Virus record (IMG/VR): IMGVR_UViG_3300036939_000049
Location: 1-64,000 of that record
Length of the DNA: 64,000 bases
Source of the DNA: a virus
Direction: 5' to 3' (one strand)
Under the pieces are notes generated by a model. It saw only the letters and a program-made list of their open reading frames with translations. It did not search any database and was not told the origin of the DNA. Every line of letters starts with the position of its first letter. Position 1 is the first letter of the stretch. A program made the translations under genes and the position numbers. This document shows, piece after piece, positions 24,766 through 54,497 of the stretch.

Positions 24766-24978
24766 GTGGAATTAGTGGAGAACCAGATTAAGGTTTCTCG
24801 CATGGATAAGCAAGGAACTACCGTGCGGCAATACTCAGGGCGAAATATACAAGCGTTGATGGACGCGATCGCGCTTGATGCTCCAGCCATGCGCCCGGAT
24901 CATGCGTTGTACTTGGGTGTGATGCTTGAACGTGCTTGGAATGCTTTGCGATACGGCGAAAAGTTTATACAAGGCTAA
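24766..24978 (+). CDS. Small hypothetical phage protein
   Basis: DHALYLGVMLERA...FIQ C-terminus; precedes nrdA. Confidence 0.45.
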   Translation: MELVENQIKVSRMDKQGTTVRQYSGRNIQALMDAIALDAPAMRPDHALYLGVMLERAWNALRYGEKFIQG

Positions 24979-24983
24979 AAACA

Positions 24984-26339
24984 TTGATCGAAATTCCAAA
25001 ATACACAGCCGTCACCGGCAGAATCGAAAGCTGGCTAAAAAATCCAGAAAGCAAGCTTCCTGTTTCTTGTACAGTACTCGAAGTACAAGACAGCATGGAA
25101 GGACGTGATGGGATTGAAGATTCTTGGATCTTTGCCTCTAAAGCATTACGGTACGCGGCTGGGGTGGCTTTAGATCTATCAAACCTCCGACCCAAAGGCA
25201 AAAGTAACGGACGCGGCTTAGTAGCATCGGGTCCAGTGAGTTTTTGCCAAATCTACTCCAAGCTAAACGAGACTATACGTCGTGGTGGGTGGTACAAGAA
25301 TGGCGCGCTCACTGTTTATGTCGATCATCGACATCAAGATGCTGAAGAATTCTTAAACGCTAGCCGCAATGAACTCCCTTGGGTAAAAAGAGCGCTGTAC
25401 GTTGATGAAAGTTTTCTGTCTTCCCCTTTGCTGCCCCTAATTAAAGCCAAAGTTGACGACGGAACTGTATGGCTTGCCAAGAAGCGCTGGGATAAAAACG
25501 GGAACAGACTTTTTTCTCAGGTTTGCTTAGAGATACTACTGCGATCAAGAGGCACATGTCTTCTTGCTCATGCCAACTTAGGAGAGACACCTATTGGGGC
25601 TATACCTTCAGCATTCAAAAACGCCATGAGGTTTTTGTGTGAAATACACAAAGTAACTGGTGTAGGAGAGTCCGAAATTTATCTATCACCTGAAGAAGAC
25701 CGACAAGTTGGTTTGGGTGTACTGGGCTTAGCTAATCTGCTAGCCATTGAAGGGGTTAGCTACGCCGAACTCGTCCGAGCAATGGAAAAAGCCTTGTCTG
25801 CTGGCTACTGGGCTTGGAGCATGGACAAGGCCGAGCAAATTGCGCTAGCTCTGTTGGAAGGTTTCCAGCAGGCAGCGGCAGTAGCCAAAGCTTACGGCAT
25901 GGATCGCGCCTTCACGGTAGCGCCAACAGCTAGCTGCTCTTACAGATATCGCGATCGCGAAGGCTACACCACAGCCCCTGAAATCTCGCCCCCAAACTGC
26001 CACCCCATTACGAAGGAAGTAGACCGGGACTCCGGCACGTTCGGCGTAATGACCTACCAGTATCACCCCAGCACGGAAACAGCGGCATCTGTGGAGTGGG
26101 ATGTGCAGTGGCGGCTATTAAAGGTATGGCAGATGTATATGGAAAGTACCGGACTGGCACATTCAATTAGTGCCAATATCTGGGACAAGCAGGCAATTAC
26201 AACCGAGTGGTTAAAAGATTGGTGGGAGTCCCCTTTGGTTACAACATACTACAGGCTTGTCACTCAGCAAGCTGCCGTGGATAAGAGTACAGTCTGGAAC
26301 CAGTGTAACGACGAAGTTTGTTCAGCGTGTGCGGAGTAA
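24984..26339 (+). CDS. nrdA: Ribonucleotide reductase alpha subunit, compact cyanophage class I type
   Basis: PVSC, VCLE (radical Cys/Glu), GTCLL, APTASCS, YY dyad (TTYYR) and terminal CSAC; likely start TTG 24984. Confidence 0.85.
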   Translation: MIEIPKYTAVTGRIESWLKNPESKLPVSCTVLEVQDSMEGRDGIEDSWIFASKALRYAAGVALDLSNLRPKGKSNGRGLVASGPVSFCQIYSKLNETIRRGGWYKNGALTVYVDHRHQDAEEFLNASRNELPWVKRALYVDESFLSSPLLPLIKAKVDDGTVWLAKKRWDKNGNRLFSQVCLEILLRSRGTCLLAHANLGETPIGAIPSAFKNAMRFLCEIHKVTGVGESEIYLSPEEDRQVGLGVLGLANLLAIEGVSYAELVRAMEKALSAGYWAWSMDKAEQIALALLEGFQQAAAVAKAYGMDRAFTVAPTASCSYRYRDREGYTTAPEISPPNCHPITKEVDRDSGTFGVMTYQYHPSTETAASVEWDVQWRLLKVWQMYMESTGLAHSISANIWDKQAITTEWLKDWWESPLVTTYYRLVTQQAAVDKSTVWNQCNDEVCSACAE

Positions 26340-26349
26340 GTAGTAAGAA

Positions 26350-27066
26350 ATGTCGTTTTACAGCAATTTGCTAGCAAAAAAACGTTTGTGGTCCCCAACA
26401 ATGGGGGATAAACAGCCAGTAATGCCAGGAAGCGAAGGAACTATTGGTCGCTGCTTGGCTTTGCGTGTACTGGAGATTCCCGTTGGGGACTGGGTGAACG
26501 AAACCCAAGAAAAAGGAACATTACCAGAAGACGCGATCACGCTCCTCAAATCCAACGCCGAGGACGAGCTTAAACACGACAAACTACTACAAATGGCGCA
26601 CGACACTTATGCGTTGACTACGGTAGAGATGCAACAGGAAGCTAACGTGATCGCGCTCGAATGGTTCAAGCATCCAGACCCCCCAATAGTAAAAGCCTTC
26701 GTACTGGAAAATGCCGTGTTTTTTATCATTTTGCCCATCCTGCGGAAGTTTGGTGGACAAGGACTGAGAAATGCAGCGTTCGATATTAGCTCAGACGAAA
26801 GTATTCACGCGCCATGTAACAGAGCTGTAGCGAAACGTATGGGATACTCGTTCAGTCCAAGTTTGGATAAGCTACGTGATCGCACAGCCCGGTTTTTAGT
26901 GCGTGACTTAAATGCCCCTGGTAAGCTAGGTCTTCCTCAGCCTTGGCTAGATGCTTCAGAAAGCTTGTTGCATAAGGGACTAGCCCCTCAGTTACAAGAG
27001 ACTCAAAATTACATAATGCCTGCGTTTTTTGAATCTCACGCTGCCGACCTCCCGCAGTACTCCTAG
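26350..27066 (+). CDS. nrdB: Ribonucleotide reductase beta subunit (ferritin-like)
   Basis: Metal ligands E, DELKH, E, DESIH; C-terminal Tyr; directly after nrdA. Confidence 0.8.
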   Translation: MSFYSNLLAKKRLWSPTMGDKQPVMPGSEGTIGRCLALRVLEIPVGDWVNETQEKGTLPEDAITLLKSNAEDELKHDKLLQMAHDTYALTTVEMQQEANVIALEWFKHPDPPIVKAFVLENAVFFIILPILRKFGGQGLRNAAFDISSDESIHAPCNRAVAKRMGYSFSPSLDKLRDRTARFLVRDLNAPGKLGLPQPWLDASESLLHKGLAPQLQETQNYIMPAFFESHAADLPQYS

Positions 27067-27087
27067 TTTGTACACGAATCGTTTACA

Positions 27088-27564
27088 GTGTCCCAACTAA
27101 CACTTGCATTTGATCGCGTACCCATCCCTAACTATCCCAAGTACGCGATCGATTCTTCAGGAAACGTCTACGGGCGCAAAGGACAACCCCTCAAAGGTAA
27201 CTTTGTTGATGGATACAACAAAGTCCACCTAGGTGATAAATACCATTACGTTCATCGACTCGTATTGCTGACATTCGTTGGTTCGTGTCCAGAGGGGTAT
27301 GAGGCATGCCATAAAAACAGCGATCGCGCAGACAACCGCCTCTCAAATTTGTGTTGGGGGAGCAAGAAACGGAATGCGCGTGACCGAAAGAAACTAGGTT
27401 ACCACCGCCCAGGTCTTAGCCCCGCACAGAAGGAACGTGCTCGCTATCTCTATGAGGTTGAGCGCTGGTCGTTTGATAAATTGCATAAGGAATTCAAATG
27501 TGATGACCATACCATCCGCAGATACGCCAAAAAATACGGCTGGCAACGCCAACAAGCCGCTTAG
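27088..27564 (+). CDS. HNH homing endonuclease (NUMOD4/HNH_3 type)
   Basis: YAIDSSGNV, YVHRLV, ACHKNSDRADNRLSNL. Confidence 0.85.
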   Translation: MSQLTLAFDRVPIPNYPKYAIDSSGNVYGRKGQPLKGNFVDGYNKVHLGDKYHYVHRLVLLTFVGSCPEGYEACHKNSDRADNRLSNLCWGSKKRNARDRKKLGYHRPGLSPAQKERARYLYEVERWSFDKLHKEFKCDDHTIRRYAKKYGWQRQQAA

Positions 27565-28190: not shown

Positions 28191-29027
28191 GTGAGCAGTA
28201 TTGAATGGACGGATGCCACATGGAATTGGTTAACTGGTTGTTCTCGTACCAGTCCGGAATGTGACTTTTGTTATGCAGCAGAGGCAGCCAAGTCAGCTCG
28301 GTTGCAACAGTTTTCCCAATATCAAGGGGTAGAGAAGTGGGATGGAACCGTCAATTTTGCGGAGAGTCAGCTAGAGAAGCCACTCTCATGGCGCAAGCCA
28401 AAACGAATATTCACCTGTTCGATGTCGGATGTATTCCACGAAAACGTTCCTGATGAATGGCGCGATCGCGCTTTTGCAGTCATGGCGATCGCGAATCACC
28501 ACACGTATCAAGTTCTAACGAAGCGAACCGCAAGGATGGTGGAATATTTTTCTCAACCTAACCTCGGCAAGCGCTGGGCAAAGATTATTGAGAGTAATTT
28601 TATGTCTAGTCCATGCCTTGGGCATTTATTGGACGAGCTAAAAGAGGACTGCTTTTTAGGTAATGTGTGGCTTGGAACTACAGCTGGGTGCCAAGAGTCT
28701 GTACGTGATCGCGTACCTCTAATATCTGGGCTAACAGATAAAGGCTGGACAACCTTCATTAGTGCAGAACCACTACTTGAAGAACTGCATTTAGGTTTTG
28801 CCTTTCCTGGGTATCGAGTTAGTTGGGTTATCACTGGTGCTGAGTCTGGTCGTAGTGCTCGTCCAATGAATGAAGACTGGGTAAGAAATTTACGCGATCA
28901 ATGCGTAGAGGCGGATGTAGCGTTCTTCTACAAGCAAGATTTTAAAAAAGGCAAAAAAATCAGCTTGCCAGAACTAGACGGTAAGCAGTGGGCTGAATTT
29001 CCACAAAAACAGGAGGTGGCAGCGTGA
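28191..29027 (+). CDS. DUF5131 (phage Gp37/Gp68) family protein
   Basis: SIEWTDATWN..GC...SPECDFCYA, SMSDVFH, LTKR, SAEPLL, WVITGAESG, FFYKQ. Confidence 0.9.
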   Translation: MSSIEWTDATWNWLTGCSRTSPECDFCYAAEAAKSARLQQFSQYQGVEKWDGTVNFAESQLEKPLSWRKPKRIFTCSMSDVFHENVPDEWRDRAFAVMAIANHHTYQVLTKRTARMVEYFSQPNLGKRWAKIIESNFMSSPCLGHLLDELKEDCFLGNVWLGTTAGCQESVRDRVPLISGLTDKGWTTFISAEPLLEELHLGFAFPGYRVSWVITGAESGRSARPMNEDWVRNLRDQCVEADVAFFYKQDFKKGKKISLPELDGKQWAEFPQKQEVAA

Positions 29028-29602
29028 TTGTTGCTCGTGTCGAAGAATCAAAGCGCGGAAACTGGTTCGGTCCTATTGTCGCGATCGCGTCCATACCATT
29101 CGACGACAAAGCTCCCGAACTCGCTCGGTTACTCAAAGGTCGAAAAGGGCAGCTACGGGATTCCAAGATGATGTCCAAGATCGTTCGCCAGAAACTTCTA
29201 CCTCAAATTCAAGAGTCTATTATCTGGCGTATTGGCTACGCTACAGCGACTGAAATTGAGCGAAACGGTATTTACTGGGCTTGGGCAAAGGCTTGTGATA
29301 GAGCCGTACAAAAACTCCCCATTGTCCCAGATCGCGTACTGGTTGATGGCAACCAAAAGATTCCTTGCCTCGAAATTCCCCAGACAACTTTGGTTGATGG
29401 AGACAAGCGAGATTTCTGCCTTGCTGCCTCCAGCGTGATCGTCAAAGAATGGTCCGACGGTTTAGTAGAACGACTAGGAAAGAAATACCCTCATGCATTG
29501 GACAAGCATCACGGATATGGCACGGTACAGCATCGCCAAGAACTAGCACTACACGGGCTAACTCCTCAGCATCGTAAAGGCTTCTGCCAGCGGTACGCCT
29601 AG
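29024..29602 (+). CDS. rnhB: Ribonuclease HII
   Basis: EESKRG-x-x-FGP, RDSK, LVDG, GD...AASSVIVK, HHGYGT, HR motifs. Confidence 0.85.
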   Translation: MIVARVEESKRGNWFGPIVAIASIPFDDKAPELARLLKGRKGQLRDSKMMSKIVRQKLLPQIQESIIWRIGYATATEIERNGIYWAWAKACDRAVQKLPIVPDRVLVDGNQKIPCLEIPQTTLVDGDKRDFCLAASSVIVKEWSDGLVERLGKKYPHALDKHHGYGTVQHRQELALHGLTPQHRKGFCQRYA

Positions 29603-32231: not shown

Positions 32232-33059
32232 ATGATGGCTATTTCACGTCCAGCCTTACGTTATCCCGGTGGTAAATTTCGGGATGGGTATTGGATTATC
32301 AACCACTTCCCCAAACACATGACTTACTGCGAACCATTCGGTGGTGGTGGTTCAGTCCTACTACTTAAGCAACCTTCGACCTATGAGTTCTACAATGATC
32401 TCGACGGAGAGGTTGTTAACTTCTTCAAGATGCTGCGTGACAGAGGAAGCGCGTTAATTGAGAAGATTCAACTCACGCCTTACAGCCGAGTAGAACAAGA
32501 ACTCAGCCGTATTCCAGAAGGTGATGAATTGGAAAGGGCGAGACGTTTCTATACCAGAAGTTGGCAGACCATAAATGGTGCAGAAAAACGTTATGCCTCT
32601 GGCTGGCGAAATATATATAAAAGTACTCGCGGGACTGATGTGATTCGCGAGTGGAATAACACTGAACACTTGCAGGCAGTTGTTTGGCGGCTTCGTCAAG
32701 TTCAGATTGAAAACCGTCCAGCCTTAGATTTAGTTAAGCGCATTGATACTGAGGAAACTCTGTTTTATTTCGATCCACCCTATGTAAAGAGCACTCGATC
32801 TGAAAAGCATAGAGATTTGTATAAATTTGAGTTGAACGACGAAGAACATTGTCAACTAAGTAAAGTCATTCATTCGCTCAAAGGAATGAGCATCATCTCT
32901 GGGTATGACTGTGCGTTATATCGAGAACTCTTTAAGGATTTTTACTTAGTTAAGAAAAAGACAACCAAAAATCATGGCAAAACAGCCATTGAATGTCTTT
33001 GGCTTTCACCAAATGTCATAAAAAGTCAACAACAATTAAACCTATTTGAGGTGCAGTAA
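32232..33059 (+). CDS. DNA adenine methyltransferase (D12/Dam family)
   Basis: RYPGGK, EPFGGGGSV, NDLD, DPPY; C-terminal QLNLF resembles a beta-clamp-binding motif. Confidence 0.9.
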   Translation: MMAISRPALRYPGGKFRDGYWIINHFPKHMTYCEPFGGGGSVLLLKQPSTYEFYNDLDGEVVNFFKMLRDRGSALIEKIQLTPYSRVEQELSRIPEGDELERARRFYTRSWQTINGAEKRYASGWRNIYKSTRGTDVIREWNNTEHLQAVVWRLRQVQIENRPALDLVKRIDTEETLFYFDPPYVKSTRSEKHRDLYKFELNDEEHCQLSKVIHSLKGMSIISGYDCALYRELFKDFYLVKKKTTKNHGKTAIECLWLSPNVIKSQQQLNLFEVQ

Positions 33060-34420
33060 TGGGTAAAACATCATGCGTCAGACACTCACCAAACGCTAGA
33101 TACGTGAAATTGAGAGAAGACTATATCGCAATTTGTGATGGACTTGATTGTGCAGCAAAAATACTCGATTTATTTGAGTATTGGACAAACTGCAAACTTG
33201 AGGCAATCAAAGAGGTTCGCTCATACAACACGATGGCTAAAAAGCTGAAACAGCCTGAGATGAACGAACCCACATTGTGGTTATACGAAAGAGTTGCAGA
33301 TTTTCGCGAAGGTTTACTCAATGATCCGAAATTTAGAAAAGCCGTTGGACGCCCAGGGACAGGTTCTGCGGATACACACATCAAAGCTAGTCTTAAGTTT
33401 TTGCACAAAAAAGGCTTTATCAGCTGGCGGGCATCTAGACAAAAGTGTGACAACACAAAAGAGTACCTATTGAATACGAGCGTTGTACAAAAAGCCATTG
33501 ACGCTTGGTGGGAACATCAGCAAAGCGCTGAAAGCCTTGAAAAATCAGATGAGTCAGATTTGACTGACCATGAGTCAGATTTGACCGACCATGAGTCAGA
33601 TTTGACCGACCATGAGTCAGATTTGACCGACCATGAGTCAGATTTGACCGATATCTTTACTAATAGTCAATCTATTAGTCTTCCTAAAAATTCCTACTAT
33701 TCCTCCAACGAAGCGCCCCCTAAACCCGGCGCACCCCCCACCCAAGAAAGCGTGTGTGTGGCAGACCCGGAGGTCAGTCAAGAGGACAAAGGCAATAGCA
33801 ACAACCTCAAAGACTCTCAAACAACCACCCTGGCTACGAAACAGGATTTAATCAGCATCCGGGAAGAAAGCATAGTTTCTGGTAAAGACAAAAATTCCGC
33901 TGCGACGAATGAGAATGATTATCAAAAGAGCTTGTCTGATGCAGAAATTGCAAAAGCCAAAGCAAAACTTGAATCTAGGTACACGGAAGGCAGATTAGCT
34001 AAGCAATGGTTAGAGGACAAGACTTTTCACAAGTTTATTGCTGAGCACCACCTAGTAAATACGTCTCATTGGCAAAAAGCATCTAGACCCCCGCAAGGAA
34101 ATGATGCCAAAAGCTGGGTCAGAACTAAGCTCAAGGAAGATGCTGGGATTATCCAAGACAAGTGGGAAGCTTATCAGCAAGAGCTGGCGCGACGTGTAGA
34201 AGTTGAGCAAATCAAACAACCTGCTGCTGAACCAGCAGTAGCTGAGCAGGCACCGCCCCGCAAAAACAACCAGTTTCAGTTTTACAGGTCAGCCATCAAG
34301 TCCAACGTACCCATACTGCGTCCCCATCGAGAGCGTGGGATTGAGTGGGCAAAGCAGCAGCCAAACGTGGCTCTAGTCTTCGATGACAACGGCGAAGTAA
34401 TCGACATAGAGGAATTTTAA
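33059..34420 (+). CDS. Replication initiator (lambda O-like) containing iterons
   Basis: N-terminal wHTH-like region, internal 21-bp repeats, adjacent to dnaB. Confidence 0.75.
   Translation: MGKTSCVRHSPNARYVKLREDYIAICDGLDCAAKILDLFEYWTNCKLEAIKEVRSYNTMAKKLKQPEMNEPTLWLYERVADFREGLLNDPKFRKAVGRPGTGSADTHIKASLKFLHKKGFISWRASRQKCDNTKEYLLNTSVVQKAIDAWWEHQQSAESLEKSDESDLTDHESDLTDHESDLTDHESDLTDHESDLTDIFTNSQSISLPKNSYYSSNEAPPKPGAPPTQESVCVADPEVSQEDKGNSNNLKDSQTTTLATKQDLISIREESIVSGKDKNSAATNENDYQKSLSDAEIAKAKAKLESRYTEGRLAKQWLEDKTFHKFIAEHHLVNTSHWQKASRPPQGNDAKSWVRTKLKEDAGIIQDKWEAYQQELARRVEVEQIKQPAAEPAVAEQAPPRKNNQFQFYRSAIKSNVPILRPHRERGIEWAKQQPNVALVFDDNGEVIDIEEF
33549..33651 (+). repeat. Five tandem 21-bp iterons; putative replication origin
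   Basis: atgagtcagatttgac(t/c)gacc x5, each containing the GTCA-N4-TGAC palindrome, followed by an AT-rich tract. Confidence 0.85.
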
Positions 34421-35776
34421 ATGCAAGAACTTAAGCAGCAACTAGAAGCGCAGTTCTCATCTGCGCCCATGCTTCCACCGCAAAACGTTGAGGCTGAGGA
34501 AGCTGTCCTAGGGGGAATACTTCTCGACCCAGGAGCTATAGCTCGTGTAGCAGACCTTTTGCCGCCAGATGCGTTTTACATCGCAGCCCACAAAGAAATC
34601 TACAAAGCCGCACTAGCGCTTTATCACGCCGGACGTCCCACAGATTTGTTGCATCTTTCCACTTGGGTCTTCGATCATCACCTGAGCGACAAAATTGGTG
34701 GGAATAACAAGCTTGCCGAATTGGTTGACCGGACGGTATCCGCTATCAATATCGACCGATATGCGGCACTGCTTTTGGATAAGTGGCAGCGGCGGCGCTT
34801 AATTCATGCTGGGAACGAGATTGTTCAGTTGGGGTATGACACGAGCCGTGAGTTGGAGGAGGTAACCAACGAGTCAGAGCAGAAAGTCTTTGCCTTGTCT
34901 CGTCAGTCTCAAAACAACACGGCAACATCTGACCTCTGTGACACGATCGCGTCATGTTATGGACGAATTGAGCAAATTTCTTCTGGTCAGACAGCACCGG
35001 GTATACCTTCAGGCTTCTACGACCTGGATGCTAAGACTGGTGGTTTTGGGCGTGGTGACTTGATAGTTGTTGCTGGGCGGCCGGCGATGGGAAAAACCGC
35101 TTTTGCCACGGGCTGTGCTCGCAACGTGGCTGACAAAGAGCCTACGCTCATTTTCAGTCTGGAGATGAGCAAAGAGCAGCTAGGCGACAGATTTCTCTCG
35201 ACTGAATCTGGTGTTCCTTCCGAGCGGATGCGGACGGGGAAGCTCCAAGACAATGACTGGGCAGCACTGTCAGACGCATTGGGGACACTAGCAAGCCTTC
35301 CAGTTGTGATCAACGACCAAAGCATCATCACGGTTGCTCAGATGGCTAGTATCGCCCGCCAAGTCTCTATCGACAAAGGAGGGCTTGGGATGGTCTTGAT
35401 TGATTACGTACAGCTTATGGGGGAGGGTAAGGATAATCGAGTCCAAGAGCTATCACGAATCACCCGACAGCTCAAAATAATGGCAAAAGAACTAAAAGTT
35501 CCAGTAATCCTGCTTAGTCAGCTCTCGCGAGAAGTGGAAACTCGGACAAACAAGCGCCCGATGATGAGCGACTTGCGGGAGAGCGGCAGTATCGAGCAGG
35601 ACGCAGACATAGTGCTCATGTTGTACCGAGACGAGTATTACAACCCAAACACGCCCGATCGCGGCATTGCTGAACTGATCATTGCTAAGCATCGCAATGG
35701 TCCAACCGGAACAATCAAGCTTTTGTTCGATAGCGAAGTCACGCAATTCAAAAACTTAGCGCAGAAGGGGTTTTAA
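34421..35776 (+). CDS. dnaB: Replicative DNA helicase
   Basis: PPQNVEAEEAVLG, GRPAMGKT, IDYVQLM, SQLSR, LRESGSIEQDAD, KHRNGPTG. Confidence 0.97.
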   Translation: MQELKQQLEAQFSSAPMLPPQNVEAEEAVLGGILLDPGAIARVADLLPPDAFYIAAHKEIYKAALALYHAGRPTDLLHLSTWVFDHHLSDKIGGNNKLAELVDRTVSAINIDRYAALLLDKWQRRRLIHAGNEIVQLGYDTSRELEEVTNESEQKVFALSRQSQNNTATSDLCDTIASCYGRIEQISSGQTAPGIPSGFYDLDAKTGGFGRGDLIVVAGRPAMGKTAFATGCARNVADKEPTLIFSLEMSKEQLGDRFLSTESGVPSERMRTGKLQDNDWAALSDALGTLASLPVVINDQSIITVAQMASIARQVSIDKGGLGMVLIDYVQLMGEGKDNRVQELSRITRQLKIMAKELKVPVILLSQLSREVETRTNKRPMMSDLRESGSIEQDADIVLMLYRDEYYNPNTPDRGIAELIIAKHRNGPTGTIKLLFDSEVTQFKNLAQKGF

Positions 35777-35777
35777 G

Positions 35778-38489
35778 ATGCTGTATACAGCTAGTTATTT
35801 CCAACCAGAAAATCATCATGGGCAGTTGCTGAGCATCTCGCGATCGCGCCCCGCGAAATTCCAACAAGCTCCTACGCTAGACTTCTTCGCTCCCACTCAA
35901 GACCTGCTGGATTTCTGGCACAGAGAAACCAAGACAGCACAACGCGAAGCTATTCCCCAGTTGTGGACGCAGTATCAAGATCAATTTTTTGAATTACTTG
36001 ACGACCGGGCGTCTCAGATTGAGGACTGGATAGCTCAACTAAATCCAGTAGAGGACTACACTCTCTGCTGTTGGGAGAGAACCACCGACCGGATACCCAA
36101 CTGCCACCGCAATGATGTTGGTGCGTTATTAGCGGTTCGGTGCAAAGAACTATGGGGTGGTTTTGACGTCATTGTCACGCCCCAGGAGCGTGCTTGGAAT
36201 TCACCTGAATTTGAAATTTGCGACGAAGAGGGCACAAAATCAATTTGGTTTTGGGTTGATAAACCAACCGATTCTACAGCCCGACAGCTAACAACAAAAT
36301 GGGGGACTAAAATTGTTCAGCTGAAAGAGATTAAAAAGGTAATCTCAGAATCTTGCGAAACAAACCTGCCGCCCCAAGCTTGTTTGGTTCAATCAGAAGC
36401 CAAACCTTGCAAAGTTTTTGTTCAACCGCAAAAACCACCAATAGATTTCAATGATCCAGTTGTTATCCTCAACCCACAGACACCGGACTATCAAGCACAG
36501 CTAAAAGCAATAGCACAAGCTGACTTATTAGTCTTGGACTTAGAGACGTATGGAGAAACCAATTACAAACATGGGGGCTTGCACCCTTGGGATGGGCGGA
36601 TTCGTTTAGTCCAGTTGTTTGACGGCAAAACCGTTTGGATTGCGGATTTAGGCGGACGTTCGCTCAACACCTTACCGTTATTCGCTACTTGTGAATCTGA
36701 GCGTGATGTTAAGCATCAGCAGTTTCAGGAATTCTTTGAGGTACTGCGCGATCGCGTATCTTCCCCAGAGTGTCGAATTGTGGGTCATAACATACACTTC
36801 GACTTGAGGATGCTGGCTACACAGCTAGGAATTAAAGCCCAAAATATAGCTTGTACTTTAGTTGGCGCTAAAGTATATTTTGGTGACTACGGTAAAGGCG
36901 ACGATACTGATAAAAAAGGGGCATCAGACCCTATTTTATCTGGGGGTTATGGTCTAGGAAATTTAATCAAGCGTTGGTTTGATATGCCGCTTGATAAATC
37001 TCAGCAAAAATCAGATTGGGGCGGGTATCTTACAAACGAGCAAATTGAATATGCCGCTAGGGACGTGATAGCTACATGGCATCTCTATCAGACGCTACAG
37101 GGCTTGTACTCGAATAAAAAATCTCCACTCTACAGTTCAACTTTACTGGAGAGCTGGGAAGTCGAAAATCGTTGCATTCCGGTTGCAGTTGACATCGAAT
37201 GTTGGGGAATGCCCGTGGACTTAGAGTTGGTCGAAGTACAAGGGCAACAAATTGAAAGTATTCGGCAGCAACTTTTACAAGAATGGGAGCAAATCAGTCC
37301 CAATGTCACTTACAACCAAACCGCTGAATTGACCAAACTGTTAGCCGAACAGTACAACATTCACCTAGAGAAGTTGGATAAAACTGAGCTAGCGGCACAT
37401 CAAGATAATCCATTGGTTAAGCTCCGGCTTAAACTCAAGGCTTTGGATGTGAAGCTCAACAACCTAAAAGCATTTGCTCGGTCGGCGGTGCGTGATGGGC
37501 GTGTGCACACAACCTACCGAACGCTTACGGGATTTGGTCGGTTTAGTAGTGGCGAGTCTAAAAACTTTGACGATTTACCCAACTTACAGTCTATCTCCGC
37601 TAAAGACAGCCCGATGATTAGCGAGTACAAACTCCCTAATCCAAGGTCAACCATCAAACCTCCCCCAGGTTATGCGATGGGTGTTATTGACTTGGCGGGT
37701 GCTCATGGTCGGATTGCGGCTGACCAAGCAGAAGATGAAACCGCGATCGCAGGAAATAATGACAAATCAATAGACAACCACAGCAAAGTTGCAGTTTACA
37801 TTGCTAAATGTCAAGGATTGGATTGGACATGGGAGGACATTGCTCGGCTTCGTGAGGAACCGTCTGACGAAGGGAAGAAAGCGGATGCGTTTCGATCCAC
37901 AGCAAAAAATACCTATTATGGTTGGCTTAACGGCGCTGGTGCTGGACGCATTCAAGACCAAATTACTGCTAATACTGGAAAAGAACCAAAGCTTGAAGAC
38001 TGCGAAGCTGCTATTGAAGGGTGTAAGGTGCTTTACCCTAAAGTGTTGAAACATCGTGCAGCACTTCACAAGCGTTTAGTGAAAACGGCTGTTGAGGTTG
38101 ATGGGCGTAAAGTCGCTGTGAATAAAACCTCAGATGGGTTTAGGATTTTGCTCCCATTAGTCGCCAATCGCAACAACCCAGATCGTCTAGAAGCACCCTA
38201 CACACAATCTCTTGCAGCGATTTGGACGCGAATTGAAGCCACAGCCGTAAAAAGGGCTTTACCCAAAATCCAATATCTAATCAACCAATACCCTGAATGG
38301 GATTTGCAGATTATTGGGGTAGTTCACGATGAAGTGGATGTGTTGGTCAAAGAAGAATTTGCCCAGGTCGCGATTATGCAAGTTAATGACTTGATTGGGG
38401 ATGAATTCAAAGCCCAGCTTAAGTACGTGATTGATGGGCGAAAAACCAATTGGAAAAAATTAATTGTTCCATCGTGGGCTGACAAGTAA
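35778..38489 (+). CDS. polA: Family A DNA polymerase with 3'-5' exonuclease and N-terminal DUF488-like domain
   Basis: Exo I DLET, II HNIHFD, III YAARD; TGFGRFSS, PNLQS, motif A D, motif B R..AK, motif C VHDE; N-terminal LYTASYF...LCCWE...CHR. Confidence 0.85.
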   Translation: MLYTASYFQPENHHGQLLSISRSRPAKFQQAPTLDFFAPTQDLLDFWHRETKTAQREAIPQLWTQYQDQFFELLDDRASQIEDWIAQLNPVEDYTLCCWERTTDRIPNCHRNDVGALLAVRCKELWGGFDVIVTPQERAWNSPEFEICDEEGTKSIWFWVDKPTDSTARQLTTKWGTKIVQLKEIKKVISESCETNLPPQACLVQSEAKPCKVFVQPQKPPIDFNDPVVILNPQTPDYQAQLKAIAQADLLVLDLETYGETNYKHGGLHPWDGRIRLVQLFDGKTVWIADLGGRSLNTLPLFATCESERDVKHQQFQEFFEVLRDRVSSPECRIVGHNIHFDLRMLATQLGIKAQNIACTLVGAKVYFGDYGKGDDTDKKGASDPILSGGYGLGNLIKRWFDMPLDKSQQKSDWGGYLTNEQIEYAARDVIATWHLYQTLQGLYSNKKSPLYSSTLLESWEVENRCIPVAVDIECWGMPVDLELVEVQGQQIESIRQQLLQEWEQISPNVTYNQTAELTKLLAEQYNIHLEKLDKTELAAHQDNPLVKLRLKLKALDVKLNNLKAFARSAVRDGRVHTTYRTLTGFGRFSSGESKNFDDLPNLQSISAKDSPMISEYKLPNPRSTIKPPPGYAMGVIDLAGAHGRIAADQAEDETAIAGNNDKSIDNHSKVAVYIAKCQGLDWTWEDIARLREEPSDEGKKADAFRSTAKNTYYGWLNGAGAGRIQDQITANTGKEPKLEDCEAAIEGCKVLYPKVLKHRAALHKRLVKTAVEVDGRKVAVNKTSDGFRILLPLVANRNNPDRLEAPYTQSLAAIWTRIEATAVKRALPKIQYLINQYPEWDLQIIGVVHDEVDVLVKEEFAQVAIMQVNDLIGDEFKAQLKYVIDGRKTNWKKLIVPSWADK

Positions 38490-50013: not shown

Positions 50014-51297
50014 ATGCGAGTTTTCGTTCTAGATAAAAACCTAATTCCTCTTGACCCTTGCCATCCAGCACGGGCGAGAGAACTACTACAAAAGGGGAGG
50101 GCTAAAGTATTCAAGCGATATCCATTCACTATTGTTCTACAAGATAGAACTGCGGAGGATTCGGTTACACATCCACATCGAGTCAAAATTGACCCAGGTA
50201 GCAAAGTTACAGGGTTTGCGGTTGTTCAAGAAGAAACAGGGCGAGTAACAAATGCTTTAGAAGTTGCCCATCGGGGACAGCAAATCAAGGACTCCCTTGA
50301 GTCTCGACGCGCTTTAAGAAGAGGTCGGCGCAATCGAAAAACTCGATACCGCAAGCCTCGCTTCTTGAACAGAACTCGTAAAGCTGGATGGCTTCCACCT
50401 TCTCTTGAGAGTCGTATTACCAACATTGAGACTTGGGTAAAGAGACTCAGAAAACTTTGCCCAGTTACTGCAATTTCTCAGGAATTGGTAAGGTTTGATC
50501 TACAGAAAATAGAGAATCCAGAAATTAGTGGGGTTGAGTATCAAAGAGGCGAACTGTTTGGCTTCGAGGTTAAGGAATATTTATTAGCTAAATGGAACAG
50601 GAAATGCGCCTATTGTGGAGTTGAGAACGTTCCTTTCGAGATTGAACATATCCTTGCCAAAAGCAAAGGGGGTTCAAACCGAGTTAGTAACCTCTGCCTA
50701 AGCTGTCATTCCTGCAACCAATCCAAGGGTAACAAGCCTGTTGAGGAATTCCTCAAGAAAAAGCCTGAAGTTCTCAAGAGGGTATTAGCTCAAGCCAAAG
50801 CACCCCTTAAAGATGCTGCTGCGGTTAACGCAACTCGTTGGGAACTGTATAGCCGCCTTCAATCTACGGGTTTACCTGTAGAGGTTGGGTCAGGCGGTCG
50901 AACAAAGTTTAACCGTAAAACCAGGGGGATTGAGAAACATCACTGGACAGATGCCGCTTGTGTTGGAGCATCAACTCCAGAACAACTTCTGCTTAAGGGT
51001 GTCAAACCTCTGATTGTTAAAGCTAAAGGTCACGGAACTAGGCAACGCTGTCGCCCTGATAAGTTTGGTTTTCCAAAAGCGCATGCGCCCAGCGCTAAGT
51101 ATTTTCAGGGCTTCCAAACCGGAGACATCGTTAAAGCCAACATCCCGTCTGGAAAATTTGCAGGTAATTATGTTGGCAGAGTTGCTATTCGATTTAGACC
51201 AAGTTTCGTCTTGCAACTGCCTACTCAAAAATTTGATGTACACCCAAAATACTTGAAAACTATCCACAAAGCGGACGGCTATGAATATCAATTCTGA
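50014..51297 (+). CDS. iscB: RNA-guided endonuclease IscB
   Basis: PLDPCHPARAR (PLMP), IDPGSK, RRGRR bridge helix, ELVRFD, HNH EH..N..CN, HWTDA. Confidence 0.95.
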   Translation: MRVFVLDKNLIPLDPCHPARARELLQKGRAKVFKRYPFTIVLQDRTAEDSVTHPHRVKIDPGSKVTGFAVVQEETGRVTNALEVAHRGQQIKDSLESRRALRRGRRNRKTRYRKPRFLNRTRKAGWLPPSLESRITNIETWVKRLRKLCPVTAISQELVRFDLQKIENPEISGVEYQRGELFGFEVKEYLLAKWNRKCAYCGVENVPFEIEHILAKSKGGSNRVSNLCLSCHSCNQSKGNKPVEEFLKKKPEVLKRVLAQAKAPLKDAAAVNATRWELYSRLQSTGLPVEVGSGGRTKFNRKTRGIEKHHWTDAACVGASTPEQLLLKGVKPLIVKAKGHGTRQRCRPDKFGFPKAHAPSAKYFQGFQTGDIVKANIPSGKFAGNYVGRVAIRFRPSFVLQLPTQKFDVHPKYLKTIHKADGYEYQF

Positions 51298-53213: not shown

Positions 53214-54497
53214 ATGCGCGTTTTCGTTCTAGACAAAAACTTAAAGCCTCTTGACCCTTGCCATCCTGCACGGGCAAGAGAACTACTACAAAAAAGGAGG
53301 GCGAAAGTATTCAAGCGCTATCCATTCACCATTGTTTTGCAAGATAGAACCGTTGAGGATTCGGTTACACATCCTCACCGAATCAAAATTGACCCCGGTA
53401 GCAAAATCACGGGCTTTGCTGTTGTTCAAGAGAAGACAGGTCGCGTCACAAGCGCCATTGAAGTCTCGCACCGAGGGCTGCAAATCAAGGATGCTCTTGA
53501 GTCACGCAGGGCATTACGAAGGGGTCGGCGTAACCGTAAAACCCGTTACCGTAAACCTCGTTTCTTGAACAGAACTCGTAAACAGGGATGGCTTCCACCT
53601 TCTTTTGAAAGTCGAATAGCCAATATTGAGACTTGGGTGCGGAGGATCAGAAAACTCTGTCCAATTTCAGACATCTCTCAAGAACTGGTAAGGTTTGACC
53701 TTCAACAGATGGAAAATCCTGAAATATCAGGAGTTGAGTATCAAAGAGGGGAGTTATTCGGATTTGAAGTTAAGGAGTACTTACTTCAAAAATGGGGTAG
53801 AAAATGTGCCTACTGCGGCATTGAAAACGTTCCGTTCGAGATTGAACATATCCTCGCCAAAAGCAAAGGTGGCTCTAATAGAGTTAGCAATCTCTGTCTG
53901 AGTTGTCATTCATGCAACCAAGCCAAAGGCAACAAGCCTGTTGAGGAATTCCTCAAGAAAAAACCTGAAGTTCTCAAACAGATTTTAGCTCAAGCCAAAG
54001 CACCTCTCAAAGATGCTGCGGCTGTCAATGCGACCCGATGGGAACTGTACAGACGACTGCAATCAACTGGGTTGCCTGTAGAAGTCGGGTCTGGCGGTCG
54101 GACAAAGTTCAATCGTAAAACCAGAGGGATTGAAAAAGCTCACTGGACTGATGCAGCTTGTGTAGGTGCGTCTACTCCAGGGCGATTACTTCTTAATGGG
54201 GTAAAACCACTGAATGTCAAAGCCAAAGGGCATGGAAGAAGGCAGCGTTGCGGTACAGACAAATTTGGATTCCCAGTCCGTCATGCTCCAAGTCAGAAAC
54301 TTTTCATGGGATTCCAGACAGGTGACTTGGTTAAAGCTGATGTTCTGGCTGGAAAGTATGCAGGGAGCTATACGGGTCGAATTGCAATCCGATTCAAACC
54401 AAGTTTCAAGTTAACAACTGGAGGAAAGAGTTTTGACGTGCATCCGAAATATTTGAAGACCATCCATAAGGCTGATGGCTACGAATATGCATCCTAA
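53214..54497 (+). CDS. iscB: RNA-guided endonuclease IscB (second copy)
   Basis: Same motifs and length (427 aa) as copy 1; most divergent at the C-terminus. Confidence 0.95.
   Translation: MRVFVLDKNLKPLDPCHPARARELLQKRRAKVFKRYPFTIVLQDRTVEDSVTHPHRIKIDPGSKITGFAVVQEKTGRVTSAIEVSHRGLQIKDALESRRALRRGRRNRKTRYRKPRFLNRTRKQGWLPPSFESRIANIETWVRRIRKLCPISDISQELVRFDLQQMENPEISGVEYQRGELFGFEVKEYLLQKWGRKCAYCGIENVPFEIEHILAKSKGGSNRVSNLCLSCHSCNQAKGNKPVEEFLKKKPEVLKQILAQAKAPLKDAAAVNATRWELYRRLQSTGLPVEVGSGGRTKFNRKTRGIEKAHWTDAACVGASTPGRLLLNGVKPLNVKAKGHGRRQRCGTDKFGFPVRHAPSQKLFMGFQTGDLVKADVLAGKYAGSYTGRIAIRFKPSFKLTTGGKSFDVHPKYLKTIHKADGYEYAS

What the first reader, a model, noticed from the sequence alone, without database searches (positions are those of the whole stretch)
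37680..37935. PolA with non-canonical nucleotide-selection residues
Seen: motif A is DLAGAHGR where Pol I has DYSQIELR, so His replaces steric-gate Glu710. Motif B is RSTAKNTYYGWLNG, giving Tyr at 762 and Asn in place of Tyr766. The catalytic Asp residues of motifs A and C are intact. Established: E710 excludes rNTPs and works with Y766 in fidelity. Inference: the enzyme may incorporate ribonucleotides or modified bases, or prime synthesis. No primase is visible, and the phage encodes RNase HII, which removes embedded rNMPs.
Basis: partly seen in the sequence, partly recalled or inferred. Interest (0 to 1): 0.75.

Follow-up and report, generated by a model that had tools for sequence, protein, structure and literature searches.

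The report
Phage DNA polymerase with His–Asn sugar pocket
The only DNA polymerase of this cyanobacterial phage belongs to a large family I did not find described, in which two active-site residues reported as invariant in Pol I-type enzymes (Glu, the ribonucleotide "gate", and its partner Tyr) are always His and Asn; this most likely still selects DNA building blocks, but nobody has measured it.

Summary
The 903-aa ORF at 35778-38489 is a proofreading family-A DNA polymerase. A profile-profile alignment to E. coli Pol I places His643 at the Glu710 position, Asn718 at Tyr766 and Tyr714 at Phe762. The catalytic Asp residues and the exonuclease motifs are intact.

This is a family hallmark. All relatives with the region aligned carry His (166/166) and Asn (160/160), down to about 25% identity. 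Two further fixed residues, Trp816 and Glu820, lie in a remodelled motif 6. On a tree the family forms one well-supported group. Nodularia phages have the same signature. An unchecked first-reader note of this scan reports the signature in another genome.

The functional inference is not supported:
- His is the proven sugar gate of PolD and the proposed gate of Pol III.
- About 30 of 171 relatives are fused to primase-helicase domains, so priming is done by other modules.
- A DnaB-type helicase lies immediately upstream and could recruit host primase.
- RNase HII accompanies the polymerase only in the one syntenic close relative.
- The phage encodes ribonucleotide reductase, and I found no base-modification genes.

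Best reading: an ordinary replicase whose coupled Glu-Tyr pocket pair is replaced by His-Asn. Its substrate selectivity is untested.

The parts
35778..38489 (+). Whole gene: 903-aa family-A DNA polymerase (N-terminal extra domain, 3'-5' exonuclease, polymerase). It is the only DNA polymerase found in the 101-kb record.
   Evidence: ORF; Pfam PF01612 and PF00476; six-frame searches for PolB and Pol III alpha were negative, and PolA was found once.
35778..36167 (+). N-terminal ~130 aa: DUF488-N3a-like domain. This is a lead only. It is present only in the closest relatives.
   Evidence: Protein-atlas nearest clusters carry PF22751/PF04343, score 0.87-0.88; phrog_2450, unknown function, E 2.8e-8; no Pfam or NCBIfam hit. 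The alignment shows it only in P0001, P0003 and L010.
36510..37112 (+). 3'-5' proofreading exonuclease domain with intact Exo I (D254, E256), Exo II (D342) and Exo III (Y425, D429) residues.
   Evidence: Pfam PF01612, 69.6 bits; conservation 146/147, 147/148, 159/159 (D or E), 160/160 and 160/160.
37155..38486 (+). Polymerase domain (thumb, palm, fingers).
   Evidence: hhalign to E. coli Pol I; AF2 model and Foldseek hits to apPOL, Aquifex Pol I and Klenow.
37671..37721 (+). Motif A: beta strand ending in catalytic Asp638, then His643 (codon 37704-37706) at the Klenow Glu710 steric-gate position, then Arg645.
   Evidence: His 166/166 and Asp 166/166; secondary structure of the model.
37866..37943 (+). 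O-helix / motif B: Arg706, Lys710, Tyr714 (Phe762 position), Asn718 (codon 37929-37931, Tyr766 position).
   Evidence: Lys 164/164, Tyr 153/163 (Phe 10), Asn 160/160.
38196..38255 (+). Remodelled motif 6 (helix Q). The Klenow N845 and Q849 positions are Ala813 and a variable residue (Thr817 here). The family-fixed residues are Trp816 (M848 position) and Glu820 (A852 position).
   Evidence: hhalign and hmmsearch registers anchored on the shared K-R-A; Trp 156/160, Glu 159/159.
38316..38342 (+). Motif C: His850-Asp851-Glu852, the second catalytic Asp.
   Evidence: Asp 157/157.
34421..35776 (+). DnaB-type replicative helicase, ending 2 nt before the polymerase start. It is a likely recruiter of host primase.
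   Evidence: Pfam DnaB_C 338 bits and DnaB N-terminal domain 96.9 bits. Host-primase recruitment is inference.
33059..34420 (+). 453-aa ORF of unknown family, abutting dnaB upstream (its stop codon ends at 34420 and dnaB starts at 34421), with a five-fold acidic repeat. It is a candidate origin-binding or helicase-loading protein, judged by position only.
   Evidence: No Pfam, PHROG or NCBIfam hit; sequence; conserved upstream of dnaB in L010.
29024..29602 (+). RNase HII gene.
   Evidence: Pfam PF01351, 79.5 bits; six-frame hit.
24936..27066 (+). Ribonucleotide reductase alpha-like and beta subunit genes (dNTP supply).
   Evidence: PHROG hits phrog_367/84 and phrog_6799.

Best explanation
This is the phage's replicative, proofreading, DNA-dependent family-A DNA polymerase, working with the adjacent DnaB-type helicase. 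It belongs to a large, deeply diverged and apparently undescribed PolA subfamily found mostly in phages, prophages and plasmid-like elements. In this subfamily the hydrogen-bonded Glu710-Tyr766 pair that lines the sugar and nascent-base-pair pocket of canonical PolAs has been replaced as a set by His-Asn. This replacement comes with a remodelled motif 6 (fixed Trp and Glu; the N845 and Q849 equivalents are lost) and a T7-like Tyr at the Phe762 position. Shown: the gene, fold, residue equivalences, family-wide invariance, a single well-supported group, and the replication context. Inferred: the imidazole of His643 packs under C2' of the incoming nucleotide and still excludes rNTPs, as His does in PolD and is proposed to do in Pol III. 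Also inferred: Asn718 (and possibly Glu820) positions it in place of the Tyr hydroxyl. On this reading the enzyme makes ordinary DNA from the dNTPs supplied by the phage's own ribonucleotide reductase, primers come from host DnaG or an unrecognised phage protein, and RNase HII removes them.
For: Gene and domains. Residue equivalence: hhalign probability 100%, and hmmsearch to 8jrb and 7sxq. Fold: AF2 pLDDT 94.6; Foldseek TM 0.68-0.80 to apPOL, Aquifex Pol I and Klenow. Invariance: His 166/166, Asn 160/160, Glu820 159/159, Trp816 156/160, with exonuclease motifs kept. This strict purifying selection matches that on the catalytic Asp residues, as expected for an essential, precise pocket rather than a relaxed one. 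One group on the tree: SH-aLRT 99, branch length 0.71. Sharp separation from canonical PolAs in 301 cyanobacterial genomes: above 700 bits against at most 301 bits. The five lower-tier hits whose motif A aligned all carry D-Y-S-Q-I-E-L-R. Sole polymerase in the record. DnaB is adjacent and RNR is present. Precedent for His gates: PMC7708050 (H931A abolishes discrimination) and PMC8485763. E710 and Y766 form a coupled pair: PMC3715850. Relatives are fused to primase-helicase modules.
Against: No biochemistry exists for any member. Single substitutions E710Q, E710A and Y766A in Klenow are mutators and impair fingers closing (PMC3715850), so the pocket must work differently in detail. Asn cannot stack on the template base as Tyr766 does in the open state. 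Loss of the N845 and Q849 equivalents suggests that more than sugar selection has changed. I could not measure His-Asn-Glu distances because no coordinates are available. The canonical outgroup sampling in the tree is thin (8 sequences). The record is estimated to be 80% complete.
Confidence: 0.6

Rival explanations
1. Relaxed sugar gate: the His-Asn pocket lets the polymerase embed rNMPs at an elevated rate (or use rNTPs when dNTPs are scarce), and the phage RNase HII removes them afterwards.
For: The canonical gate Glu and its partner Tyr are both gone. An RNase HII gene lies 6 kb upstream and is syntenic in the closest relative, L010. In single-subunit RNA polymerases the Tyr766-equivalent hydroxyl reads the 2'-OH (my own knowledge, not tested here), so this position is tied to sugar choice.
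Against: His is bulky and is a proven (PolD) or proposed (Pol III) steric gate (PMC7708050, PMC8485763). RNase HII is absent from a complete Nodularia phage genome and a viral record rated 100% complete by CheckV, both with this Pol type, and from 12 other neighbourhoods. The phage invests in RNR. Absolute invariance of His over about 25-95% identity argues for a precise role, not a loosened one. Active proofreading is retained.
Confidence: 0.13
2. Pocket adapted to a modified nucleotide (base- or sugar-modified dNTP) that the phage incorporates during replication, by analogy with DpoZ or the polymerases of T-modified phages.
For: Several pocket and minor-groove residues change together (H643, N718, W816, E820; N845 and Q849 equivalents lost). 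Many ORFs of the genome have no assigned function.
Against: I found no nucleotide-modification genes (PurZ, dNMP hydroxymethylase, deazaguanine genes, etc.) in Pfam or PHROG scans of about 55 ORFs. I found only post-replicative DNA methyltransferases, DndB and RNR. The NCBIfam DpoZ models score far below their cut-offs (31 bits against 500). The same signature occurs in very different genomic contexts, both fused and free-standing.
Confidence: 0.08
3. Self-priming polymerase: the altered pocket allows de novo initiation with an rNTP, replacing a primase.
For: No primase family was detected in the 101-kb record.
Against: About 30 of 171 relatives carry the same pocket fused to DUF3854 (Toprim-like)/D5_N/DUF5906 primase-helicase modules. 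DnaB is adjacent and could recruit host DnaG. The model shows an ordinary Klenow-type primer-template cleft with a full thumb. No family-A DNA polymerase is known to prime (my own knowledge). The record is only about 80% complete, and ORFs of unknown function remain.
Confidence: 0.03

Closest known systems
Aquificae-like / apicoplast PolA ('Hot Spring 1', cluster #8 of Czernecki et al. 2023, PMC10201439; structures 8jrb, 5dku, 7sxq, 9qsc)
   Same: These are the best sequence and structure matches in the PDB: profile E 1.4e-83 to 8jrb and 1.4e-77 to apPOL, with Foldseek top ranks. Both have an exo+ Klenow-like architecture. Both share the R-I-A-A-E stretch after motif A. Both tend to be fused to N-terminal primase-helicase modules.
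   Different: Cluster #8 has the canonical motifs D-F-S-Q-I-E-L-R and A-K-A-I-N-F-G-L-I-Y-G and N-x3-Q-G. This family has His, Tyr and Asn at those positions and a Trp/Glu motif 6. The fused modules here are DUF3854/D5_N/DUF5906, whereas the apicoplast enzyme carries a TOPRIM primase plus helicase as described in PMC10201439.
Canonical bacterial Pol I large fragment (Klenow, Bst, KlenTaq)
   Same: Same fold (TM up to 0.80). Shared residues: the catalytic Asp pair, Arg754, Lys758, Arg668, Arg682 and His734 equivalents, the HDE motif C, and DEDDy exonuclease residues.
   Different: The Glu710-Tyr766 pair, called invariant in family A (PMC3715850), is His-Asn. Phe762 is Tyr. The Asn845 and Gln849 equivalents are lost. 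There is no 5'-nuclease domain.
T7 DNA polymerase (cluster #5)
   Same: Tyr at the Phe762 position. A replicative phage enzyme working with a hexameric helicase.
   Different: T7 keeps Glu480 and Tyr530. It is on the canonical side of the tree. No thioredoxin-binding insertion was examined here.
divPolA1 / divPolA2 (Yutin et al. 2024, PMC11348598) and other His-gate PolA clades noted by this scan
   Same: According to earlier follow-up notes of this scan, divPolA1 also has His at the gate position.
   Different: Per the paper, divPolA1 has a truncated thumb and an inactivated exonuclease. divPolA2 lacks both a homologous thumb and the exonuclease. Both are accessory enzymes carried beside a regular replicase. 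The enzyme here has a full thumb and intact exonuclease motifs, and is the sole polymerase.
Histidine steric gates of PolD (H931) and Pol III alpha (H760)
   Same: A His side chain next to C2' of the incoming nucleotide excludes rNTPs. This is shown by mutagenesis for PolD (PMC7708050) and by modelling for Pol III (PMC8485763).
   Different: These are unrelated folds. This is analogy only, and no contact was measured for the enzyme here.

Membership tests
Family A DNA polymerase (Pfam PF00476) | Klenow-like palm, fingers and thumb fold | tested here: met
   AF2 model with pLDDT 94.6. Foldseek probability 1.00 and TM 0.68-0.80 to apPOL, Aquifex Pol I and Klenow. Pfam 41.4 bits against a cut-off of 34.3.
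Family A DNA polymerase (Pfam PF00476) | Catalytic Asp of motif A and Asp of motif C; Arg and Lys of motif B | tested here: met
   D638, D851, R706 and K710 align to D705, D882, R754 and K758. They are invariant or nearly invariant in the family.
Family A DNA polymerase (Pfam PF00476) | Steric-gate Glu (E710) hydrogen-bonded to the motif-B Tyr (Y766), described as invariant in family A (PMC3715850; positions A2 and B4 of PMC10201439) | tested here: not met
   His643 and Asn718 occupy these positions, in 166/166 and 160/160 relatives. Fold and catalytic residues still place the enzyme in family A, so this feature is evidently not universal.
Family A DNA polymerase (Pfam PF00476) | Motif 6 minor-groove residues N845 and Q849 | tested here: not met
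   The aligned positions are Ala813 and the variable Thr817. The fixed residues Trp816 and Glu820 occur instead.
DEDDy 3'-5' proofreading exonuclease (PF01612) | Exo I D-x-E, Exo II D, Exo III Y-x3-D | tested here: met
   D254, E256, D342, Y425 and D429 are present and conserved across the family.
Hot Spring 1 / Aquificae-like / apPOL subfamily (cd08639) | Canonical motifs with Phe at B3, Glu at A2 and Tyr at B4 | tested here: not met
   Tyr, His and Asn occupy these positions here, while 8jrb and 7sxq are canonical. The nearest canonical-motif PolAs of cyanobacteria score at most 301 bits against more than 700 bits for family members and fall on the other side of a branch with SH-aLRT 99.
DpoZ (aminoadenine-specific PolA) | Match to the NCBIfam phage_DpoZ models above their cut-offs | tested here: not met
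   31.2 bits against a cut-off of 500, and 23.7 bits against 350.
divPolA1 / divPolA2 | Truncated or missing thumb, inactive or missing exonuclease, accessory to another replicase | tested here: not met
   The model has a full thumb, the exonuclease motifs are intact, and there is no second polymerase. Family description from PMC11348598.

The most novel reading that the evidence does not exclude
The His-Asn-(Trp/Glu) pocket is a natural alternative solution for nucleotide selection in family A. It may change sugar selectivity, for example through tolerance of rNTPs or 2'-modified nucleotides, or a different ddNTP and fidelity profile. If so, a whole clade of phage and plasmid replicases (at least 150 clusters at 50% identity) would synthesise or tolerate ribonucleotide-containing DNA, and would offer a new scaffold for polymerase engineering.
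Probability: 0.13. Interest if true: 0.8.

Novelty: new variant of a known kind. Interest (0 to 1): 0.6.

Why it matters
The Glu710-Tyr766 pair is textbook. It has been called invariant in A-family polymerases and is treated as conserved in the 2023 classification of 19 PolA subfamilies. It is also the standard target when engineering Taq, Klenow or Pol theta to accept rNTPs or XNA. A large natural clade that replaced both residues together and kept them fixed shows that the pocket has a second viable design. It gives biochemists a ready-made double-mutant cycle (His to Glu, Asn to Tyr). It also defines an additional PolA subfamily, often built into giant primase-helicase-exonuclease-polymerase proteins that recall the apicoplast PREX enzyme. 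If sugar selectivity turns out normal, it becomes a third independent example (after PolD and Pol III) of histidine as a steric gate.

Tried and rejected
- Residue-level 3D check of the gate (His-Asn-Glu distances, clash with a 2'-OH): not possible, because structure prediction returns no coordinates. I used the secondary-structure register and profile alignments instead.
I used viral, genome and metagenome locus scans instead. These reach only close relatives (18 loci), so co-occurrence statistics are small.
- The search for related loci with the diverse alignment A2 failed because it had no conserved stretch.
- Search for a primase: the Prim-Pol, DUF3854, DnaG_N, Toprim_3 and DnaG Zn-ribbon families were all negative in six frames. 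The 453-aa and 911-aa ORFs have no family.
- N-terminal 239 aa as a hidden primase: nothing supports it. The only lead is DUF488-N3a.
- DpoZ, divPolA1/2 and T7-like membership: rejected.
- Gordonia phage Cleo, a weak tblastn hit, has canonical D-Y-S-Q-V-E-L-R and is not a member.
- Literature: five full-text searches found no description of a His/Asn PolA. The library lacks most subscription journals, so this is not proof of novelty.
Full report
WHAT IS THERE. The finding lies inside a 903-aa ORF at 35778-38489 on the + strand. Pfam finds a 3'-5' exonuclease domain (PF01612, 69.6 bits) and a weak but significant family-A polymerase domain (PF00476, 41.4 bits against a cut-off of 34.3). The window is the first 64 kb of a 101,252-bp viral record that CheckV estimates to be 80% complete.

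The record carries terminase, MuF-like, protelomerase and integrase-family genes. It is a tailed phage of a filamentous cyanobacterium. Its closest relatives are a syntenic contig of an Allocoleopsis MAG and elements in Leptolyngbya and Rhizonema.

Directly upstream lie a DnaB-type helicase (34421-35776) and a 453-aa ORF of no known family. Further upstream lie a Dam-type methylase, RNase HII (29024-29602), DUF5131, an HNH endonuclease and ribonucleotide reductase genes. Six-frame searches find no PolB and no Pol III alpha, and find PolA only once. This enzyme is therefore the only polymerase detected in the record.

A profile-profile alignment of a 64-member family alignment against E. coli Pol I gave probability 100% and E 1.7e-41 over 570 columns. 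It pairs the residues as follows:
- Asp638 with Asp705
- His643 with Glu710
- Arg645 with Arg712
- Arg706 with Arg754
- Lys710 with Lys758
- Tyr714 with Phe762
- Asn718 with Tyr766
- His850-Asp851-Glu852 with His881-Asp882-Glu883

HMM alignments to Aquifex pyrophilus Pol I (8jrb) and to the Plasmodium apicoplast polymerase give the same register. An alignment against T7 gp5 agrees for motif B.

An AlphaFold2 model of residues 240-903 is very confident (pLDDT 94.6, pTM 0.93). It matches apPOL, Aquifex Pol I and Klenow over its whole length, with TM up to 0.80. In the model the motif-A strand ends at Asp638 and the following helix begins at His643. Asn718 sits immediately after the O-helix. These are the places of Glu710 and Tyr766 in Klenow. 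I could not superpose residues in 3D because coordinates are not returned.

IT IS A FAMILY HALLMARK. A full scan of 1.84 billion representative proteins found 1229 hits at E of 0.001 or less, and 109 at 1e-30 or less. I aligned the 150 best of these, together with the hits of a second search, to a family HMM. Every sequence covering the region has His at the gate position (166/166) and Asn at the Tyr766 position (160/160). This holds down to about 25% identity. The catalytic Asp residues (166/166 and 157/157) and Lys710 (164/164) are equally fixed.

Tyr occupies the Phe762 position in 153 of 163 sequences. Two more residues are fixed: Trp816 (156/160) and Glu820 (159/159). They lie in helix Q, where canonical PolAs have the N-x3-Q-G motif. 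The Asn845 and Gln849 equivalents are Ala and a variable residue. The exonuclease residues are conserved, so these are proofreading enzymes.

The isolated Nodularia phages (Ravarandavirus) carry the same signature. Gordonia phage Cleo, a weak hit, is canonical.

A maximum-likelihood tree of 31 members and 8 canonical PolAs puts all His/Asn sequences on one side of a branch (SH-aLRT 99, length 0.71). One origin is therefore consistent with the data. The canonical sampling is thin and the root is arbitrary.

In 301 sampled cyanobacterial genomes the family profile gives three tiers:
- above 700 bits in 3 genomes, all His/Asn;
- 183-301 bits for second PolAs. Five of the seven I examined aligned at motif A, and all five read D-Y-S-Q-I-E-L-R;
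- about 130-170 bits for the housekeeping polA.
I saw no intermediates.

HOW IT PROBABLY WORKS. In canonical PolAs, Glu710 and Tyr766 are hydrogen-bonded and line the pocket for the sugar and the nascent base pair. E710A, E710Q and Y766A are mutators that fail to close the fingers. The hydrogen bond has been described as invariant in A-family polymerases (PMC3715850). The 2023 classification treats the gate (A2) and this Tyr (B4) as conserved positions of its 19 clusters, with Phe at B4 unique to DpoZ (PMC10201439).

Here both partners changed together and then stayed fixed. That is the pattern expected for a compensated pair, not for loss of function. Histidine is a competent sugar gate elsewhere. 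In PolD, H931A abolishes rNTP discrimination, and the imidazole is proposed also to bind the 3'-OH (PMC7708050). In Pol III alpha the invariant His760 is modelled against C2' (PMC8485763).

My best reading (confidence 0.6) is that His643 remains the gate. It would be positioned by Asn718 and perhaps Glu820, and the enzyme would make ordinary DNA. This step is inference. Nothing here measures selectivity.

- No primase: I confirm this for five primase-related families. However, the adjacent DnaB-type helicase has the N-terminal domain and could recruit host DnaG. This is an inference from how DnaB-type helicases work. In about 30 of 171 relatives the same polymerase is the C-terminal part of 1,200-1,860-aa proteins. 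Five such proteins scanned against Pfam carry DUF3854 (Toprim-related; PMC10079941), D5_N and/or DUF5906 modules. Priming in this family is thus the job of other domains.
- RNase HII: it is present, but it travels with the polymerase only in the syntenic Allocoleopsis contig. It is missing from 12 other neighbourhoods. It is also missing from the whole genomes of a 200-kb viral record (100% complete by CheckV) and of Nodularia phage kac65v151. A polymerase without a 5'-nuclease domain needs an RNase H for primer removal in any case.
- Modified bases: scans of about 55 ORFs found methyltransferases, DndB and RNR, but no nucleotide-modification pathway. The NCBIfam DpoZ models score far below their cut-offs.

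COMPARISON AND NOVELTY. The nearest described subfamily is the Aquificae-like/apicoplast group, which gives the best PDB matches. It shares the habit of primase-helicase fusion but has canonical motifs. divPolA1 and divPolA2 (PMC11348598) are accessory enzymes with a truncated or missing thumb and no working exonuclease, and they are not this family.

Five full-text searches found no description of a His/Asn PolA. The library is incomplete. Follow-up agents have reported other His-gate PolA lineages, so His at the gate may have arisen more than once. I did not test that.

I rate this a new variant of a known kind. It is a real, large, apparently unnamed PolA subfamily with a rewired nucleotide pocket and unmeasured biochemistry.

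LIMITS. There are no coordinates and no biochemistry. The record is about 80% complete.

Noticed in passing
window 35778-36167 (aa 1-130 of the polymerase): An extra N-terminal domain is fused to the polymerase. Its nearest protein-atlas clusters are phage DUF488-N3a proteins (score about 0.88, a lead only). It occurs only in the closest relatives (P0001, P0003, L010). Other members have different or no N-terminal extensions.
   Followed up: partly
relatives P0012, P0032, P0036, P0039, P0043; L008:6620-12016; L011:6953-12028: Giant 1,580-1,860-aa single polypeptides place primase-helicase modules ahead of the 3'-5' exonuclease and the His/Asn PolA. P0012 has all three modules (DUF3854 Toprim-like, D5_N, DUF5906). 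P0032, P0036 and P0039 show only DUF3854. P0043 shows only DUF5906. The L008 protein shows none in Pfam. The architecture recalls apicoplast PREX but uses different primase-helicase modules. The genes sit next to terminase or SF2-helicase genes.
   Followed up: partly
window 50014-51297 and 53214-54497: Two paralogous 427-aa genes each combine an RRXRR domain (PF14239, about 245-250 bits) with an HNH nuclease domain. From memory this is an IscB-like arrangement. I did not look for any associated RNA.
   Followed up: no
window 33059-34420: A 453-aa ORF abuts dnaB upstream. It has no family match and carries a five-fold tandem acidic repeat (E-S-D-L-T-D-H) in its middle. Its N-terminal 200 aa are conserved in the syntenic Allocoleopsis contig. 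By position it is a candidate initiator or helicase loader.
   Followed up: partly
G000 beyond the window: 79026-80006 (-), 80279-81730 (-), 89540-90619 (+): A protelomerase (ResT/TelK catalytic domain), a CHASE3 histidine kinase and a DndB homologue are encoded in the same phage record. The protelomerase agrees with an earlier first-reader note suggesting a linear phage-plasmid lifestyle.
   Followed up: partly
window 24936-27564: The RNR alpha-like ORF is short (467 aa) and matches only internal parts of large-subunit profiles. It is followed by RNR beta and an HNH endonuclease gene. I did not examine whether the alpha subunit is complete, split or of an unusual class.
   Followed up: no
cyanobacterial genomes G154, G082, G251, G216, G237 etc. 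(loci L030-L036): About 20 of 301 sampled cyanobacterial genomes carry one or two extra PolA genes (mostly 600-840 aa, two of about 2,500 aa) beside the housekeeping polA. The five examined that aligned at motif A are canonical there. They are the nearest canonical relatives of the His/Asn family and may belong to the published Aquificae-like cluster. I did not verify this.
   Followed up: partly
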